Below are positions 1-5,454 of a DNA stretch of 49,277 nucleotides, one piece after another. Source of the DNA: a virus (lineage: Duplodnaviria; Heunggongvirae; Uroviricota; Caudoviricetes); the IMG/VR virus record IMGVR_UViG_2534682330_000007. The stretch is one strand, 5' to 3'. A program made the translations under genes and the position numbers. The notes under the pieces are model-generated. The model ran no database searches. It saw only the letters and a program-made list of their open reading frames with translations, and was not told the DNA's origin. Each line of letters starts with the position of its first letter. The first letter of the stretch is position 1.

Positions 1-1284
1 TTACTTCTTCGCCTCTGCAACCACTTTACTACCCACGCCGCGGTTATTGTATTCCCACATGCGGTTGTAGTTAGTGTCATTCAGATTGCGCTGTATTTCG
101 TCGTTATCATCTACGCTGCCGGTATTACCCGCAAACGGACGATTAGAGATCACCGCATCGGCCCACGGTTTAGCCATGTTAAAACCTTCGTTGATGGCGC
201 TATCACGGATCACCACCTGACCGTTGGTATTGGCATCAACATCCAGCGAGCGGCCCAGTTGCGCCACACCATCACCGAAAGCATTGAAACGGCTGTTTAC
301 GGCGAGGAAACCGTAGTAAATGTTGGACAGCGTAGCCGGTGCAAACACATACGCTTCTTGCTGAGTACGTGAGTTCACCACGCGGAATTCGGTGTTATCG
401 AACACCACTGCGCCGCGACCAGAAACGATATCCACATCCCCTTCAATGTAGCTGTTGGTCACCAGCGTACGCGGCTGACGATTCGTTTCCAGACGGTTCT
501 GCACACCGCTGTTGGTGACAAAGAAGGTGTTCTGACGACCGAGAATGTTAACGTTGTTAATCTGTACCTGGTCACCATCAGTACGCAGTGCCACCGCCGG
601 ATGGTTACCTGCATCTACGCTATCGCCCAGCGTGTTTTCGATGGTCAGATTTTGCAGTTGCAGGCCATTGTTTTGTGACCAGAAGACCGCAGAGCAGAGA
701 ACACCGATACTGTCGCTGCGTTTGCTCTGGCAGCTATCGTACATATACCACGCTGGTTTACCTGGCATATATTTGCCGCGCGGGTTGACGTCGTGACGCC
801 AGTCGGCAGGGCTCATGCCACCATCAAGGGAAAGCCCAATCTTCACATCAATCGGTTTTTCACCTGTACCGTACAGAGTAATTCCACCCGGAGCGGCAGG
901 GACATATCCCGTTCCCTGATACTCACCAGGCATCACGGCAATATACTGGCGCTTGTTGGTACGCTTGATAATTGCCGCATCTACCGCCGCCTGAATCGTG
1001 GTATGCGTTACACCTTGAGTGCCCGCCGGGCCGACAACAAAGTCAGGTTGCGCAGGCAGGGTAATCGGGGAAGGATTCCACGCTGCAGCACCTGGTGTCA
1101 GGGATGCAAAATAGTGTTGAGCATCGAAATTCTGCGCTTCTTTTGCCGACAGAATCGGGCGAGAAGAGGTACCAGGCGCGGTTTGATCAGAAGGACGTTG
1201 ATCGGGCGGGGTTGAGCTACAGGCGGTCAGCGTCACGCCAAAAGCCAATGCCAGCGCCAGACGGGAAACTGAAAATGTGTTCAC
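1..1284 (-). CDS. ybhC: Host outer-membrane lipoprotein YbhC (pectinesterase-family), complete 427 aa
   Basis: ORF track 427 aa with N-terminal lipoprotein signal (LTACSS); recalled match to E. coli YbhC, which flanks attB of lambda. Confidence 0.85.
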   Translation of the reverse strand: MNTFSVSRLALALAFGVTLTACSSTPPDQRPSDQTAPGTSSRPILSAKEAQNFDAQHYFASLTPGAAAWNPSPITLPAQPDFVVGPAGTQGVTHTTIQAAVDAAIIKRTNKRQYIAVMPGEYQGTGYVPAAPGGITLYGTGEKPIDVKIGLSLDGGMSPADWRHDVNPRGKYMPGKPAWYMYDSCQSKRSDSIGVLCSAVFWSQNNGLQLQNLTIENTLGDSVDAGNHPAVALRTDGDQVQINNVNILGRQNTFFVTNSGVQNRLETNRQPRTLVTNSYIEGDVDIVSGRGAVVFDNTEFRVVNSRTQQEAYVFAPATLSNIYYGFLAVNSRFNAFGDGVAQLGRSLDVDANTNGQVVIRDSAINEGFNMAKPWADAVISNRPFAGNTGSVDDNDEIQRNLNDTNYNRMWEYNNRGVGSKVVAEAKK

Positions 1285-2489: not shown

Positions 2490-2685
2490 TTCTGATCCTC
2501 TTCAAAAGGCTACCTGTTACTGGTCGATTTAAGTCAACCTTTACCGCTGATTCGTGGAACAGATACTCTCTTCCATCCTTAACCGGAGGAGGGAATATCC
2601 TGCACTCGCGTACCCATCGACGAACTGTTTCAAGGCTTCTTGGGCGTCGCTGGCGTGCGTTCCACTCCTGAAGTGTCAAGTACAT
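2467..2685 (-). CDS. xis: Excisionase, lambda Xis
   Basis: 72 aa MYLTLQEWNARQRRPRSLETVRRWVRECRIFPPPVKDGREYLFHESAVK; overlaps int 3' end as in lambda. Confidence 0.95.
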   Translation of the reverse strand: MYLTLQEWNARQRRPRSLETVRRWVRECRIFPPPVKDGREYLFHESAVKVDLNRPVTGSLLKRIRNGKKAKS

Positions 2686-2979
2686 CGCAAAGTCTCCGCA
2701 ATTACACGCAAGAAAAAACCGCCATCAGGCGGCTTGGTGTTCTTTCAGTTCTTCAATTCGAATATTGGTTACGTCTGCATGTGCTATCTGCGCCCATATC
2801 ATCCAGTGGTTATAACAGTCGTTGATGTTCTCTGCTTCGATAACCCTGTTGAATGGCTCTCCATTCCATTCACCTGTGACTCGGAAGTGCATTTATCATC
2901 TCCATAAAACAAAACTCGCCGTAGCGAGTTCAGATATAATTTCCACCAAAGGCAGTAGTTGCTTGATGCTAAGAATTAT

Positions 2980-3411
2980 TCAATATCTATTCCTGTAATA
3001 TCTTTTATCTTTTATCTTTTTCCTTGCAAAGCCTTTTGCTAGTGATTTTGAAACACTCATAAGTGTACTAATTCCCTCATCCTTAAAGTTTGTTTTTATA
3101 GCTTGCCAGACATCCTTTTGACGTAAGTCAGCAATAAAATCATGCCCTCTTGCTGTCAACCTCAGTGGTACTTCGATCCAACTATATCCAACCCCTTCCC
3201 CTAACGCTTTGGACAATATATGACCGAACCCAGGTTTTCCATCAACCCTGACTATTAATTCGTAGTCACATAATAATCGCATATGGAAAATAAAATCTTG
3301 GTCATATCTATTAAAGCCATTATCCTCTAGTTCACTAAGCATCGTGTCAGGGCCACGAGTTTTTTCGAATGCGATAAGTAGATCTTTTAGATATTGCTGG
3401 TCTAATTTCAT
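2980..3411 (-). CDS. Hypothetical protein, 143 aa (AT-rich accessory island)
   Basis: ORF track; AT-rich codon usage unlike flanking lambda genes; lysine-rich C-terminal tail; no confident family assignment. Confidence 0.6.
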   Translation of the reverse strand: MKLDQQYLKDLLIAFEKTRGPDTMLSELEDNGFNRYDQDFIFHMRLLCDYELIVRVDGKPGFGHILSKALGEGVGYSWIEVPLRLTARGHDFIADLRQKDVWQAIKTNFKDEGISTLMSVSKSLAKGFARKKIKDKRYYRNRY

Positions 3412-3439
3412 TGCCGCCTCCGTGACATGTCACAGAGAT

Positions 3440-3778
3440 TTATATCATTAATTTTGTTTCGTGCCAGCCTTTGGTCACCCAGCATTGTGAGTCACCATTA
3501 CACGGGCATGAATTAACAGGAACTCTCTCGCCGCACTTACCGCACCGTTTTCTGCTGATCGATTTTATACGCCAGCGCACACGTGCATCATCCTGGCGGC
3601 TCAGTAACGCGATGTACTCACCAAACTCGCAAGGCGCACGCCTGAAGCGACGCGTGGCACAGTTACGCTCCAGCATTTCAATTTCCTGAGCATCAAGTAC
3701 AAGCTCCAGCTTACGCATACCGGATGATGCTTGCTTGGCTCTCTGATCGGCTTTGTGCTCTGTTGCTGATTTAGCCAT
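3440..3778 (-). CDS. Hypothetical Cys-rich zinc-ribbon protein, 112 aa (possibly Ea8.5-like)
   Basis: C-terminal CGKCGERVPVNSCPCNGDSQC cysteine cluster; 28 bp upstream of the 143-aa ORF on the same strand; occupies the lambda ea8.5 slot. Confidence 0.55.
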   Translation of the reverse strand: MAKSATEHKADQRAKQASSGMRKLELVLDAQEIEMLERNCATRRFRRAPCEFGEYIALLSRQDDARVRWRIKSISRKRCGKCGERVPVNSCPCNGDSQCWVTKGWHETKLMI

Positions 3779-3973
3779 TCTGCTTTTCCTGCATCAGGAG
3801 AAAGACAATCATGGCGGCGCGGATACTTCCGGTATCTTTTTACGCGATATTCCCCTTCAATGGCACATACAAGAAGAGAGCCATCAACAGGAGTGATTGA
3901 GGAATCGACAACCAGCAACGCTTAATTATCTATAGTGTCGTATTTGCTTCATAAAATATGGCGAATAACACAA

Positions 3974-4007
3974 AGCCCGCAGCAGCTCATTGTGCGGGCT
4001 TTTCTTA
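3974..4007. terminator. Stem-loop (AGCCCGCA-N11-TGCGGGCT) followed by TTTCTT; possible bidirectional terminator
   Basis: Perfect 8-bp inverted repeat read from sequence, located just 3' of the 204-aa minus-strand gene. Confidence 0.45.
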
Positions 4008-4071
4008 TACCTACTTCCTAGAGATAATTCTATGGAGGCATTAAATCAATACTGTCATTGGTAATATCATA

Positions 4072-4686
4072 TTATCTAAAAGTCTTTCCACTTTTAACAT
4101 CTAGGTATATTCTGTTCGACAACGTCATTCCTCCGCAATATGTGAAATAGATGTTTTCACCCTTATTGCTTGATGCCATCCACCCTCCGATTTCCTTAAA
4201 ATCGCTTTCCGTGCAGACCCCTTCATTTATTAACTTCCTAGCTGCCGAAGAAAACTCTTTTTTGTATATACGGTAGTCATCAGATCCTTTGATTAAAGTA
4301 TCATCTCCGCTCGCATTTTCAGCAGGATCTGATGGCCTTTCACTGCTAAGATCACTAAGTTTAACCCATTCTGAAAACTTGCCATTAACGATTCCATTTT
4401 TTCTTGTGCAGGATTTATTACCTTCTTTAATATATTCGCTTTCCCCTCCAACACATGAGGCTGAATATGGCTCAGTTATACGAACCCATTCACCTTTTTT
4501 TTCTAGAAAATCTACGCCTTCCCTGAAAAATATTTTCCCAGCCACTCCACATTTACTTGAAGGGCAGGTATGTCTTTCCGTTCGATCAACAACAACCCAT
4601 AGTTTTGATTCATTTTTTGCCATTGCCGATGGTATTTGAGATGAGACAATTAACGTAAGCCCTAAAATTAGTATTGATTTTTTCAT
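4072..4686 (-). CDS. Secreted Cys-rich hypothetical protein, 204 aa (signal peptide)
   Basis: N-terminus MKKSILILGLTLIVSSQIPSAMA is a typical Sec signal with AxA cleavage site; 8 cysteines in mature part; AT-rich DNA. Confidence 0.65.
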   Translation of the reverse strand: MKKSILILGLTLIVSSQIPSAMAKNESKLWVVVDRTERHTCPSSKCGVAGKIFFREGVDFLEKKGEWVRITEPYSASCVGGESEYIKEGNKSCTRKNGIVNGKFSEWVKLSDLSSERPSDPAENASGDDTLIKGSDDYRIYKKEFSSAARKLINEGVCTESDFKEIGGWMASSNKGENIYFTYCGGMTLSNRIYLDVKSGKTFR

Positions 4687-4984
4687 TGTAATTTCCTTTT
4701 ACTTTTTACAAAGCGTTTAATCATGGCTGATTATCTCTAAGTGTAGTAACAGCCTTGTGCGAAACATGTTACCAAATCGCCATTTCAGTGTATCCGCAGT
4801 TAGGCTGCCACTTCAAGGATTCCTAATTACATGGTACGTAAGCGTAAAATCCCGTTGGTTGGCGGGTAATAACTCTGATCAAATCTCCCTTGTCTTTTGC
4901 TCTTACGTATGCAGCTCTTGTGTATTCAACCCAGGCCTCCAGTTCAGCAATACGCTTACTTCCATCCGAGATAACACCTTCTAC

Positions 4985-5236
4985 TCACGCTGCTCGTTGA
5001 GTTTTGATTTTTGCTGTCTCCAGCTCAACACGCAGTTTCCCCACCGTTAGCGCAATATCCTCGTTCTCCTGGTCGCGGCGTTTGATGTATTGCTGGTTTC
5101 TTTCCCGTTCATCCAGCAGTGTCAGCACAATCGATGGTGTTACCAGCTCATGGAAAAGGTCCGCGTCAAATCCCCAGTTGTCAGGCATTGCCTGCTCTGC
5201 CGCTTCACGCAGTGCCTGAGAGTGAATTACGCTCAC
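4985..5236 (-). CDS. Small early-left protein, 83 aa (possibly the C-terminal part of an Ea22-like protein)
   Basis: ORF track; GTG start overlapping the stop of the upstream gene (GTGA); coiled-coil-like sequence; Ea22 relation is a guess. Confidence 0.45.
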   Translation of the reverse strand: MSVIHSQALREAAEQAMPDNWGFDADLFHELVTPSIVLTLLDERERNQQYIKRRDQENEDIALTVGKLRVELETAKIKTQRAA

Positions 5237-5454
5237 TTCGAACCTCTCTGTTTACTGATAAGCTCCAGATCTTCCTGGCAACTTGCACAAGTCCGACAAC
5301 CCTGAACGGCCAGGCGTCTTAGCTCATCTATGGGATCGCCACACTCACAACAATGAGTGGCAGATACAGCCTGGTGGTTCAGGCGGCGCATTTTTATTGC
5401 TGTGTTGCGCTGTAATTCTTCAATTTCTGATGCTGAATCAATGATGTCTGCCAT
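5233..5454 (-). CDS. TraR/DksA-family C4 zinc-finger protein (lambda Orf73-like)
   Basis: 73 aa with CCECGDPIDELRRLAVQGCRTCASCQ, the four-cysteine pattern of the TraR/DksA C4 zinc finger. Confidence 0.75.
   Translation of the reverse strand: MADIIDSASEIEELQRNTAIKMRRLNHQAVSATHCCECGDPIDELRRLAVQGCRTCASCQEDLELISKQRGSK

What the first reader, a model, noticed from the sequence alone, without database searches (positions are those of the whole stretch)
2980..3778. AT-rich two-gene unit immediately right of xis (zinc-ribbon protein plus 143-aa protein)
The 112-aa Cys-rich protein and the 143-aa protein are on the same strand 28 bp apart, in DNA clearly more AT-rich than the flanking lambda genes, in the variable region between xis and the Red genes. 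This slot is a known site for accessory and anti-defence or defence cargo in lambdoid phages. The zinc-ribbon protein may be an Ea8.5-type protein but the partner is unassigned.
Basis: partly seen in the sequence, partly recalled or inferred. Interest (0 to 1): 0.6.

Follow-up and report, generated by a model that had tools for sequence, protein, structure and literature searches.

The report
Phage regulator, palindrome and cargo gene
The two small genes are real but ordinary prophage cargo: a zinc-ribbon protein related to phage epsilon15 gp49 and a winged-helix DUF2513 protein, not Ea8.5-type and not a recognisable defence system; the only notable feature is a 12-base palindrome between them that accompanies the gp49-like gene in many unrelated phages and is probably its DNA target.

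Summary
Both ORFs exist as described: 2980-3411 and 3440-3778, minus strand, 28 bp apart. Only the 143-aa gene is AT-rich (36.6% GC). The 112-aa gene is 50.4% GC, the window average. A 55-aa gene lies between the pair and xis.

The 143-aa protein is Pfam DUF2513, with a confident winged-helix (MarR/PadR-like) model. In this window a 7-bp duplication frameshifts its last 8 codons.

The 112-aa protein is a full-length homologue of epsilon15 gp49 (PHROG 536). It has a basic, RHH-like N-terminus and a conserved Cys zinc ribbon. It shows no similarity to lambda Ea8.5 or Ea22, and PADLOC finds nothing.

Each gene mostly occurs without the other. In several E. coli genomes the 112-aa gene carries a nonsense codon while DUF2513 stays intact, so this is not an obligate two-component system.

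New here: the spacer is a perfect palindrome, GTGACATGTCAC, plus the DUF2513 ribosome-binding site. The same palindrome sits on or beside the stop codon of gp49-like genes in very different phages. It recurs at 9 perfect copies in 212 kb, against 0.013 expected. Downstream of it lie interchangeable small cargo genes.

Best reading: a gp49-like DNA-binding regulator, its operator, and a cargo slot filled here by DUF2513. Binding is inferred, not shown.

The parts
3440..3778 (-). 112-aa gene, a homologue of epsilon15 gp49 / TL-2011b gp20 (PHROG 536). It has a basic N-terminal arm plus an RHH-like segment, a helix, and a C-terminal Cys zinc ribbon (C79, C82, C91/C93, C99).
   Evidence: ORF. phrog_536 E 7e-48 over the full length. 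70.5% identity to epsilon15 gp49 and 85.7% to TL-2011b gp20. Cys conservation. Weak RHH hints: NCBIfam YbfE E 0.007; RHH_5, RepB-RCR_reg and RHH_1 in a few members. The window copy departs from >=90%-conserved residues at 9 positions, against a median of 2.
3422..3433 (.). Perfect 12-bp palindrome GTGACATGTCAC in the spacer; family-specific cis element and the inferred binding site of the gp49-like protein.
   Evidence: It is the only perfect copy in the 49-kb window. The same sequence lies on or next to the stop codon of gp49-like genes in E. coli, Cronobacter, Salmonella, Citrobacter, epsilon15, TL-2011b, SPN1S, ZF40, AH07 and metagenomic relatives. Counts: 29 motifs in 224 kb with a family gene versus 1 in 240 kb without.
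3417..3421 (-). GGAGG Shine-Dalgarno sequence of the DUF2513 gene, abutting the palindrome.
   Evidence: Sequence. In the RNA, CUCUGUGAC/GUCACGGAG can form a 9-bp hairpin that hides it (-10.8 kcal/mol, z -2.6). The flank pairing is not conserved in other loci.
2980..3411 (-). 143-aa DUF2513 gene: a winged-helix (MarR/PadR-like) domain with an extended beta wing and a long C-terminal helix. It is AT-rich.
2999..3019 (-). AAAGATA x3 (other genomes have x2): a 7-bp tandem duplication that frameshifts the last 8 codons of the DUF2513 gene (…KDKRYYRNRY instead of …KDITGIDIE).
   Evidence: DNA alignment with phage Chlobot and CP030939; protein alignment; coordinates. Only 2 of 183 E. coli records match the window allele at >=99%.
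2906..2931 (-). Terminator-like hairpin plus T-run just downstream of the DUF2513 gene.
   Evidence: 8-bp stem, -13.1 kcal/mol for the region, z -3.0.
3439..3467 (-). Candidate sigma-70 promoter for the DUF2513 gene, embedded in the last codons of the 112-aa gene: -35 CTGGCA at 3462-3467, a 17-bp spacer with TG, and -10 TATAAA at 3439-3444. Tentative.
   Evidence: Read from the sequence. The same geometry is kept in 5 DUF2513-linked loci. These include two where the 112-aa gene is gone but its last ~25 nt remain as non-coding DNA (L016, L003). The -10 is absent in epsilon15-type loci, and the promoter scan did not report the site.
3811..3918 (-). Remnant of an S24/UmuD-like peptidase gene upstream of the 112-aa gene; it marks a mosaic joint.
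   Evidence: Weak Pfam Peptidase_S24 hit to profile positions 54-87. RefSeq annotates the equivalent stretch as an incomplete 'DNA repair protein' or 'S24 family peptidase' pseudogene.

Best explanation
The interval is an imported three-part cassette lying in the leftward (pL-direction) early region of a lambda-like prophage. Part 1 (3440-3778) encodes an epsilon15-gp49-family protein. It is a small basic-arm/RHH-like plus zinc-ribbon protein that most likely binds DNA as a dimer. Part 2 (3422-3433) is the 12-bp palindrome GTGACATGTCAC, which travels with this gene family across unrelated phages and is most likely the protein's recognition site. Part 3 is a cargo slot that starts 5-8 nt after the palindrome-GGAG junction. 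In this window the slot holds a DUF2513 winged-helix gene ending at its own terminator. Proposed mechanism: the palindrome sits between a possible promoter and the ribosome-binding site of the cargo gene, so gp49-like protein bound there would gate transcription, and possibly translation, into whichever gene occupies the slot. DUF2513 would itself be a MarR/PadR-type dimeric DNA-binding protein with an unknown target. Shown: the ORFs, the family memberships, the winged-helix fold, the Cys conservation, the statistical association of palindrome and gene family, the interchangeable downstream genes, and the independent occurrence and independent decay of the two genes. Inferred: that the protein binds the palindrome, that this regulates the cargo gene, and what either protein does for the phage. 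In this particular E. coli lineage the cassette looks to be under relaxed constraint and may be only partly functional.
For: Family and fold: for DUF2513; for the gp49 family.

Palindrome at the 3' end of family genes down to about 31% protein identity, regardless of reading frame. In epsilon15-type genes the stop TGA lies inside it; in the window, Cronobacter and L040 it is fully non-coding.

Enrichment: 29 motifs in 224 kb of family-positive DNA, 25 of them within -3 to +18 nt of the stop. In 240 kb of family-negative DNA there is 1, and it sits beside a remnant of the gene.

Whole genomes: 9 perfect copies in 212 kb of five family-positive phage genomes, against 0.013 expected.

Site shape: the arms GTGAC/GTCAC are conserved in sequence while the central 2 nt vary (AT, AG, GC, TT). 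That pattern fits a dimeric protein site better than an RNA stem, which would show covariation.

Variable cargo after the junction: DUF2513, a DNA pol III theta homologue, four unknown ORFs of 70-85 aa, or a mini-ORF plus terminator plus small terminase.

Pair adjacency with the same spacing in E. coli, Cronobacter (60%/61% identity) and Yersinia (47%/64%).

No minus-strand promoter found by the scan, and terminators flank the unit, so expression is expected mainly with the early leftward transcript.
Against: No binding data exist, and the AF2 model of the 112-aa protein is poor (pLDDT 54), so the DNA-binding fold is not established.

RHH similarity is only weak (E 0.007-0.07).

In epsilon15 two of the three palindromes lie far from gp49, after terL and on the gp18 stop. 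In ZF40 and AH07 some lie inside coding regions. In the most distant relatives the motif is at the gene's start, inside it, about 140 bp downstream, or absent. The element could therefore have a role unrelated to the protein.

Many loci in the association test are close relatives, so the count of independent lineages is about 10-12, not 29.

The candidate promoter depends on the ORF ending ATA-TAA or TAT-AG and is absent from epsilon15-type loci.

The window's copies carry lesions. The 112-aa protein has 9 departures from conserved residues, including P45F, Y50C and I60S. DUF2513 has a frameshifted tail. dN/dS within the E. coli block is 0.3-1.0 for both genes, though on few sites.
Confidence: 0.5

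Rival explanations
1. The two genes are functionally unrelated hitch-hikers, and the palindrome is not a site for the gp49-like protein. It would instead be a module-boundary or recombination sequence, a host-factor site, or an RNA hairpin (mRNA 3'-end stabiliser or SD-sequestering stem) at which phage cassettes are exchanged.
For: The palindrome marks junctions between conserved and variable genes. In epsilon15 these are after terL, after gp18 and after gp49, each next to a reverse-strand or variable gene or a terminator. A second copy follows the large terminase in Cronobacter L010. Unpaired DUF2513 loci keep the junction. In the window the RNA can fold into a 9-bp hairpin covering the SD.
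Against: The motif is virtually absent from 240 kb of DNA without the gene family. It co-occurs with the gene in podo-, myo-, P2-like and lambda-like backgrounds that share little else. The arm sequence is conserved rather than covarying. The extended hairpin is specific to the window. The bare palindrome gives only a 4-bp stem.
Confidence: 0.25
2. The pair is a dedicated two-gene system: an anti-defence operon of the acr-aca type, or a defence module. In the acr-aca version, a small effector is followed by an HTH autoregulator, with DUF2513 acting as the Aca-like repressor.
For: It is a small gene followed 28 bp later by an HTH-type gene in a classic accessory slot. The adjacency is kept in three genera while both proteins diverge in parallel. 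A palindrome sits just upstream of the HTH gene. In Yersinia P2-like phages and L137, family genes sit after gpA, where Smc-like, CTD9 and MC5 genes follow.
Against: Neither protein has a PADLOC hit. 54 of 55 phage records with the 112-aa gene lack this DUF2513. Most DUF2513 loci lack the 112-aa gene, and several are not in phages. The palindrome follows the 112-aa gene rather than DUF2513. Nonsense alleles of the 112-aa gene persist beside an intact DUF2513. The 112-aa protein is a conserved, syntenic gene of epsilon15-like phages under purifying selection (dN/dS 0.1-0.3), which is unlike typical fast-turnover anti-defence genes.
Confidence: 0.1
3. The 112-aa protein is a TraR/DksA-like factor that binds the RNA polymerase secondary channel rather than DNA, and so reprograms host transcription early in infection.
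For: The family profile's three best PDB sequence hits are YbiI and two TraR chains, at E 0.05-0.07. hhalign against a TraR/Orf73/YbiI/DksA alignment gives probability 73% and E 3e-5 over residues 48-108 versus TraR 7-67. The Ea8.5 control gives 0.4%. Some relatives have shorter or different N-termini: clusters of about 80 aa matching only profile positions 35-112 (several may be fragments), and SPN1S's 102-aa protein with a replaced N-terminus.
Against: None of 59 members hits Pfam zf-dskA_traR at E<=0.1. The second CxxC of the TraR/DksA finger is missing; the family has C…C-x-C…C-W instead. A 47-residue basic N-terminal extension replaces the acidic tip that TraR and DksA insert into the channel. 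The phage already encodes a bona fide TraR homologue (Orf73, 5233-5454). This model does not explain the palindrome association.
Confidence: 0.1
4. The pair is a type II toxin-antitoxin system: an RHH antitoxin upstream and a toxin downstream.
For: The gene order, sizes and short spacer resemble TA operons, and the N-terminus gives weak RHH hits.
Against: The putative antitoxin carries a nonsense codon at position 40 in four sampled E. coli genomes while the downstream gene is intact. Each gene is commonly found alone. The downstream protein has a winged-helix DNA-binding fold, not a toxin fold. There is no PADLOC or TA-family hit.
Confidence: 0.02

Closest known systems
Salmonella phage epsilon15 gp49 / E. 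coli phage TL-2011b gp20 / phiV10 last gene (PHROG 536, labelled 'transcriptional regulator' without experimental basis)
   Same: Full-length homology (70-87% identity). Same length of 112 aa, same conserved Cys pattern, and the same GTGACATGTCAC palindrome at the 3' end.
   Different: In those phages it is the last gene of the rightward early operon, followed by a terminator and the terminase genes. Here it has been moved into the leftward xis-proximal region of a lambda-like prophage and is followed by DUF2513. The window copy also has non-conservative changes at conserved residues.
Pfam DUF2513 (PF10711) / PHROG 585; structurally MarR/PadR-type winged-helix regulators
   Same: It passes the Pfam threshold. 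The predicted fold has the canonical H-H-H-wing-'LT..G' layout plus a long C-terminal helix, as in PadR/MarR dimers.
F-plasmid TraR / lambda Orf73 / DksA zinc-finger RNAP-binding factors
   Same: A helix followed by a CxxC-G-x-x-(I/L)-P zinc knuckle, a similar size for the C-terminal module, and borderline profile similarity.
   Different: It fails the Pfam model, lacks the second CxxC, and has a basic N-terminal extension rather than an acidic tip.
Lambda Ea8.5
   Same: Both are small Cys-containing proteins encoded in the xis-to-exo variable region.
   Different: No detectable sequence or profile similarity. The Cys spacing and predicted secondary structure differ.
Phage 'morons' (autonomous promoter-gene-terminator insertions of deviant base composition, as defined for HK97/HK022; from general knowledge)
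   Same: The DUF2513 gene is strongly AT-rich relative to its neighbours. It ends in a terminator and may have its own promoter.
   Different: The promoter is only a sequence-level candidate. The gene also sits in a conserved slot behind the gp49-like gene rather than at a random insertion point.

Membership tests
Pfam DUF2513 (PF10711) | Score above the curated gathering threshold over the whole domain | tested here: met
   42.5 bits against a cutoff of 29.6, E 8.8e-11, residues 2-115 on profile 1-100/100. All 90 relatives carry PF10711 except one short fragment.
Winged-helix (MarR/PadR-like) DNA-binding fold | Three-helix bundle plus beta-hairpin wing, similar to solved wHTH regulators | tested here: met
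epsilon15 gp49 family (PHROG 536) | Full-length homology to gp49 / PHROG 536 profile | tested here: met
   phrog_536 E 7.3e-48, residues 1-111 on profile 2-114/115. tblastn 70.5% identity over 100% of epsilon15 gp49.
epsilon15 gp49 family (PHROG 536) | Conserved Cys set (C79-x2-C82 … C91/C93 … C99) | tested here: met
   All are present in the window protein. C79 and C82 are invariant and C99 is >=90% conserved in 59 relatives.
Lambda Ea8.5 family | Sequence or profile similarity to lambda Ea8.5 | tested here: not met
   BLASTP finds no alignment at E<=100. hhalign of the family profile against Ea8.5 gives probability 0.4%.
Lambda Ea22 / Ead family | Sequence similarity to lambda Ea22 | tested here: not met
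   BLASTP of the 143-aa protein against Ea22 finds only 8-residue chance matches, E 0.29. No Ead_Ea22 Pfam hit.
TraR/DksA C4 zinc-finger family (Pfam zf-dskA_traR) | Match to the family model | tested here: not met
   None of 59 family members hits it at E<=0.1. Only borderline PDB-sequence hits (E about 0.05) and hhalign probability 73%.
TraR/DksA C4 zinc-finger family (Pfam zf-dskA_traR) | CxxC-x17-CxxC finger | tested here: not met
   The first CxxC is present. The second pair is replaced by single Cys residues at C91/C93 and C99, the latter followed by W.
Ribbon-helix-helix (CopG/Arc/MetJ) DNA-binding proteins | Significant match to an RHH family model, or a confident strand-helix-helix dimer structure | tested here: inconclusive
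   NCBIfam YbfE (PRK11675) E 0.0068, 16.8 bits against a cutoff of 62. RHH_5, RepB-RCR_reg and RHH_1 at E 0.013-0.07 in 1-2 of 59 members. The monomer AF2 model has pLDDT 54.
Known anti-phage defence systems (PADLOC-DB 2.0) | Any component model hit | tested here: not met
   No hit at E<=1 for either protein or for the two neighbours.
Type II toxin-antitoxin operon | Obligate co-occurrence, with the antitoxin indispensable when the toxin is intact | tested here: not met
   Each gene is commonly alone. TGT>TGA at codon 40 of the upstream gene, with the downstream gene intact, in L047-L050.
Anti-CRISPR/Aca-type anti-defence operon | Homology of either protein to a known Acr or Aca family | not testable with these tools
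   No Acr/Aca library is available. Only the architecture (small gene followed by an HTH gene) resembles it.
Moron (autonomous transcription unit) | Deviant base composition plus own terminator | tested here: met
   DUF2513 gene is 36.6% GC against the 50.2% window mean. Hairpin plus T-run at 2906-2931.
Moron (autonomous transcription unit) | Own promoter | tested here: inconclusive
   Candidate CTGGCA-17-TATAAA with TG at 3439-3467 is conserved in 5 DUF2513-linked loci. It was not found by the consensus scan, and no transcript data exist.

The most novel reading that the evidence does not exclude
gp49-like proteins are an uncharacterised family of phage sequence-specific DNA-binding regulators (basic arm/RHH-like plus zinc ribbon) that recognise TGTGAC-N2-GTCACA. 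Together with that site they would form a portable 'gated cargo slot'. The site also punctuates operon ends in epsilon15-like phages (after terL, gp18 and gp49). There it could act as a new kind of transcription roadblock or termination switch, or as an early-to-late switch, and it would control expression of interchangeable accessory genes, some of which may be anti-defence or host-takeover factors.
Probability: 0.15. Interest if true: 0.6.

Novelty: new member of a known kind. Interest (0 to 1): 0.33.

Why it matters
As stated, the finding is ordinary. Both genes belong to catalogued families of unknown function (DUF2513; PHROG 536). The block occurs nearly unchanged in a sequenced phage (Chlobot) and in 139 of 5,426 complete E. 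coli genomes. It shows no defence signature and has signs of decay. The conserved palindrome is what would matter if followed up. It gives a concrete, cheap-to-test hypothesis for a protein family that is a syntenic, conserved gene of epsilon15/phiV10-type phages and also occurs in P2-like, ZF40-like and lambda-like phages. The hypothesis is that the family is a DNA-binding regulator with a defined 12-14-bp site. The palindrome also marks a slot where small accessory genes are swapped, which is useful for finding cargo genes. No paper in the searchable library mentions DUF2513, PF10711 or the palindrome.

Tried and rejected
Ea8.5/Ea22 homology: rejected.

Defence-system membership: no PADLOC hit.

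Known RNA element in 2600-4800: no Rfam match at E<=1.

Solved-structure relatives by sequence: none for the 112-aa protein, and only a chance bacteriocin hit for DUF2513.

Structure of the 112-aa protein: the AF2 model from a 30-sequence shallow alignment was poor (pLDDT 54), so it was not used for fold searches.

BFVD fold search for DUF2513: only uncharacterised, PadR or HTH proteins.

Toxin-antitoxin idea: rejected on the nonsense alleles and on independent occurrence.

My first idea was that the palindrome is the DUF2513 autoregulatory operator. I abandoned it when the same palindrome turned up behind gp49-like genes that have no DUF2513 downstream.

The own-promoter idea for DUF2513 is kept only as tentative, because the -10 is missing in epsilon15-type loci.

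LexA box near the unit: none in the window.

The search for related loci with the diverse family alignment failed because it has no conserved 7-10-column stretch.

Literature searches for DUF2513, PF10711, the palindrome, and epsilon15 gp49 or late transcription found nothing relevant.
Full report
**Setting.** The window starts in ybhC (1-1284, minus strand). A lambda-type int (1419-2489), xis (2467-2685) and the lambda 55-aa ORF (2725-2892) follow. Further right are an Ea22-like remnant, a TraR-like Orf73, orf63/orf60a, then exo, bet and gam (annotation of identical DNA). It is therefore a lambda-like prophage at attB-lambda. The finding lies in the xis-to-exo variable region, on the strand transcribed leftward from pL.

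**Check of the observation.**
- The two ORFs are exactly as described: 143 aa at 2980-3411 and 112 aa at 3440-3778, both minus strand, with a 28-nt spacer.
- The claim of AT-richness holds only for the 143-aa gene, at 36.6% GC and GC3 30.6%.
- The 112-aa gene is 50.4% GC, equal to the window mean of 50.2%.
- The pair is separated from xis by the 55-aa ORF and a terminator-like hairpin.

**The 143-aa protein.**
- It passes Pfam DUF2513 (42.5 bits, cutoff 29.6) and PHROG 585.
- An AF2 model built on 35 relatives is confident (pLDDT 91.5, pTM 0.81). It shows a winged helix with an extended four-stranded wing and a long C-terminal helix.
- The protein is therefore a fold-level member of the wHTH DNA-binding class. 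No function is known, and no paper in the library mentions the family.
- The window's allele has a 7-bp tandem duplication (AAAGATA x3 at 2999-3019; other genomes have x2). It replaces the conserved tail …KDITGIDIE with …KDKRYYRNRY.

**The 112-aa protein.**
- It has no Pfam hit, but it matches PHROG 536 end to end (E 7e-48).
- It is 70.5% identical to epsilon15 gp49 and 85.7% identical to TL-2011b gp20.
- In those podoviruses it is the last gene of the rightward early operon, followed by a terminator and the terminase genes.
- The family is small: 180 clusters at 50% identity.
- Across 59 relatives down to about 25% identity, C79 and C82 are invariant and C99 is nearly so. A further Cys lies in a 'GC.G' stretch. 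A zinc ribbon is a fair reading.
- The N-terminal 50 residues form a basic helix followed by a strand-helix pattern. They give only weak RHH-type hits: YbfE E 0.007, and RHH_5, RepB-RCR_reg and RHH_1 in a few members.
- The C-terminal 60 residues give borderline similarity to TraR and YbiI. PDB sequence hits are E about 0.05, and hhalign gives 73%. No member passes the Pfam TraR/DksA model, and the second CxxC is missing.
- The AF2 monomer model was poor (pLDDT 54).
- There is no similarity to lambda Ea8.5 or Ea22. Neither protein, nor either neighbour, hits a PADLOC model.

**Are the two genes a unit?**
- The 1.4-kb block is 99.4% identical in phage Chlobot and in 139 complete E. coli genomes.
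- In the E. coli collection, 168 genomes carry the DUF2513 gene and 513 carry the 112-aa gene.
- The same order and spacing (27-31 bp) recur in Cronobacter (60%/61% protein identity) and Yersinia frederiksenii (47%/64%).
- Against that, 54 of 55 phage records with the 112-aa gene lack this DUF2513.
- Most DUF2513 loci across Proteobacteria lack the 112-aa gene, and some are not in prophages.
- In all four sampled E. coli genomes of the 95-99% identity band, the 112-aa gene carries TGT>TGA at codon 40. One of these also has G80R and C99Y. DUF2513 stays intact in all four.
- That rules out an obligate pair, and in practice rules out a toxin-antitoxin system.
- Within the E. coli block, dN/dS is 0.3-1.0 for both genes, on few sites. 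Among epsilon15-like gp49 genes it is 0.1-0.3.
- The window's 112-aa protein departs from >=90%-conserved residues at 9 positions, against a median of 2.

**The spacer palindrome.** This was the unexpected part.
- The spacer reads ATCTCT-GTGACATGTCAC-GGAGG-CGGCA: a perfect 12-bp palindrome (3422-3433) abutting the DUF2513 Shine-Dalgarno sequence.
- I first took it for a DUF2513 operator, because it is kept upstream of DUF2513 in five enterobacterial lineages. Two of these, Enterobacter mori L016 and Serratia L003, have lost the 112-aa gene except for a ~25-nt non-coding remnant of its 3' end.
- A scan of IMG/VR for GTGACATGTCACGGAG changed that view. Of 80 loci examined, 41 have both genes and 24 have the 112-aa gene followed by something else. 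Two have DUF2513 with only the remnant, and 13 have neither in the DNA held.
- The 'something else' starts 5-8 nt after the motif in most of these loci (63 nt in the 85-aa group; 102 nt for the small terminase, which follows a mini-ORF and a terminator). It is a DNA pol III theta homologue, one of four unknown ORFs of 70-85 aa, or a mini-ORF plus terminator plus small terminase.
- In epsilon15, TL-2011b, SPN1S, Salmonella and Citrobacter prophages, the gene's TGA stop lies inside the palindrome (…GTG TGA CATGTCAC). In the window, Cronobacter and a metagenomic relative at 50% identity, the palindrome is wholly non-coding. The conservation is therefore not a by-product of coding.
- In loci not chosen by the motif, there are 29 matches to GT[GA]AC-N2-GT[CT]AC in 224 kb carrying a family gene. 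Of these, 25 lie within -3 to +18 nt of its stop. There is 1 match in 240 kb without a family gene, and it sits beside the L016 remnant.
- Whole genomes with a family gene carry extra perfect copies:
  - epsilon15 has three: 27 nt after terL, on the gp18 stop, and on the gp49 stop.
  - The myovirus ZF40 has three.
  - A P2-like Yersinia phage has one perfect copy and one with a single mismatch, 33 bp apart.
  - Pantoea AH07 has one perfect copy, plus GTGACAGGTCAC on the stop of its family gene.
  - The window has one.
- That is 9 perfect copies in 212 kb, against 0.013 expected.
- Variants change the central two bases (AT, AG, GC, TT) but keep the arms.

**Interpretation.**
- The most economical reading has three elements. 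The gp49-like protein is a dimeric, sequence-specific DNA-binding protein. The palindrome is its site. The position just behind the gene is a slot for interchangeable cargo, and DUF2513 fills it here.
- In the window the site lies between a possible promoter and the cargo gene's ribosome-binding site. The promoter would be CTGGCA, a 17-bp spacer with TG, then TATAAA (3439-3467).
- The local RNA could also fold into a 9-bp hairpin hiding that ribosome-binding site (-10.8 kcal/mol, z -2.6). Bound protein could therefore gate expression of DUF2513.
- Everything from 'binds' onward is inference.

**Main rival.** The palindrome could be a boundary or recombination element, or an RNA element unrelated to the protein. 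Its positions in epsilon15, at three operon ends each next to variable or reverse-strand genes, fit that too. Its near-absence from family-negative DNA argues against a general element.

**What argues for ordinariness.**
- Both families are catalogued.
- The block is common in E. coli prophages.
- No defence or anti-defence signature was found.
- No minus-strand promoter was picked up by the consensus scan, so expression is expected mainly with the early lytic transcript.
- Both genes show lesions or relaxed constraint in this lineage.
- No Rfam family matches the region.

**Verdict.**
- The Ea8.5 suggestion is refuted, and the defence/anti-defence suggestion is not supported.
- The unit is best described as a transplanted 'gp49-like regulator - palindrome - cargo (DUF2513)' cassette.
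- It is a new member of known kinds, of modest interest.
- Its one feature worth following up is the testable link between the protein family and the palindrome.

Noticed in passing
window 4072-4686 (-), terminator-like hairpin 3967-4000: An AT-rich (37.9% GC, GC3 29.8%) 204-aa gene. It has a signal-peptide or lipoprotein-like N-terminus and a weak SH3_3 hit (PHROG 8310, unknown function), and is followed by its own hairpin plus T-run. It looks like a classic moron and is present in the same E. coli prophages and in phage Chlobot.
   Followed up: partly
window 3811-3918 (-): A remnant of an S24/UmuD-like peptidase gene (middle part only) upstream of the 112-aa gene. A longer remnant (246 bp) is annotated in E. 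coli O68:H12 97.3, so a full gene once preceded the cassette.
   Followed up: partly
L047-L050 (E. coli ATCC 8739, O68:H12 97.3, FORC_081, PSS-13): The same TGT>TGA change at codon 40 (a conserved Cys) of the 112-aa gene occurs in otherwise diverged alleles. It is found in two different prophage contexts: attB-lambda, and next to sbcB with an IS3-disrupted integrase. The nonsense allele therefore appears old and has spread by recombination. The rest of the ORF stays open in three of the four.
   Followed up: partly
epsilon15 genome (L138/L139/L044): 2142, 19517, 39612: Three perfect copies of GTGACATGTCAC, each at the end of a transcription unit (after terL, on the gp18 stop, on the gp49 stop). 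Two sit just before annotated rho-independent terminators, and each lies next to a reverse-strand or variable gene. Cronobacter L010 also has a second copy right after its large terminase.
   Followed up: partly
L052, L068, L069, L085, L120 (IMG/VR contigs): In these loci the slot behind the gp49-like gene holds an 85-aa ORF of unknown function, preceded by a LexA-box-like palindrome (TACTGT-N8-ACAGTA, perfect in arms; centre varies among the five loci). The cargo gene there is therefore probably SOS-regulated. No such box lies near the unit in the window.
   Followed up: no
L141 (Yersinia phage vB_YenM_42.18) 7980-8318 and L137: In P2-like elements the family gene sits directly after the replication gene gpA. 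It is followed by a 2.6-kb Smc-like gene (L141) or by genes with CTD9 and MC5 Pfam hits (L137). This is the region known, from general knowledge, as a P2 accessory or defence hotspot.
   Followed up: no
L021, L024, L025, L027, L028 (second DUF2513 clade, 45-49% identity): These DUF2513 genes sit between the lysis genes and the terminase. They share an upstream inverted repeat (CAGGCA-N9-TGCCTG) followed by TGTGATAAT, possibly a promoter/operator of their own.
   Followed up: no
window 5233-5454 (-) and 4985-5236 (-): A lambda Orf73-type TraR/DksA homologue and a frameshifted Ea22-like remnant lie just right of the unit. The phage therefore already carries a bona fide TraR-like factor.
   Followed up: no
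window 3440-3778, N-terminus; palindrome 3422-3433: The half-site of the palindrome (TGAC/GTCA) is the same as the CRE/ATF bZIP half-site, with two extra central bases. The protein's N-terminal basic helix (ERKAAQRARQ) loosely resembles a bZIP basic region. This may be coincidence; it was recalled from memory and not tested.
   Followed up: no
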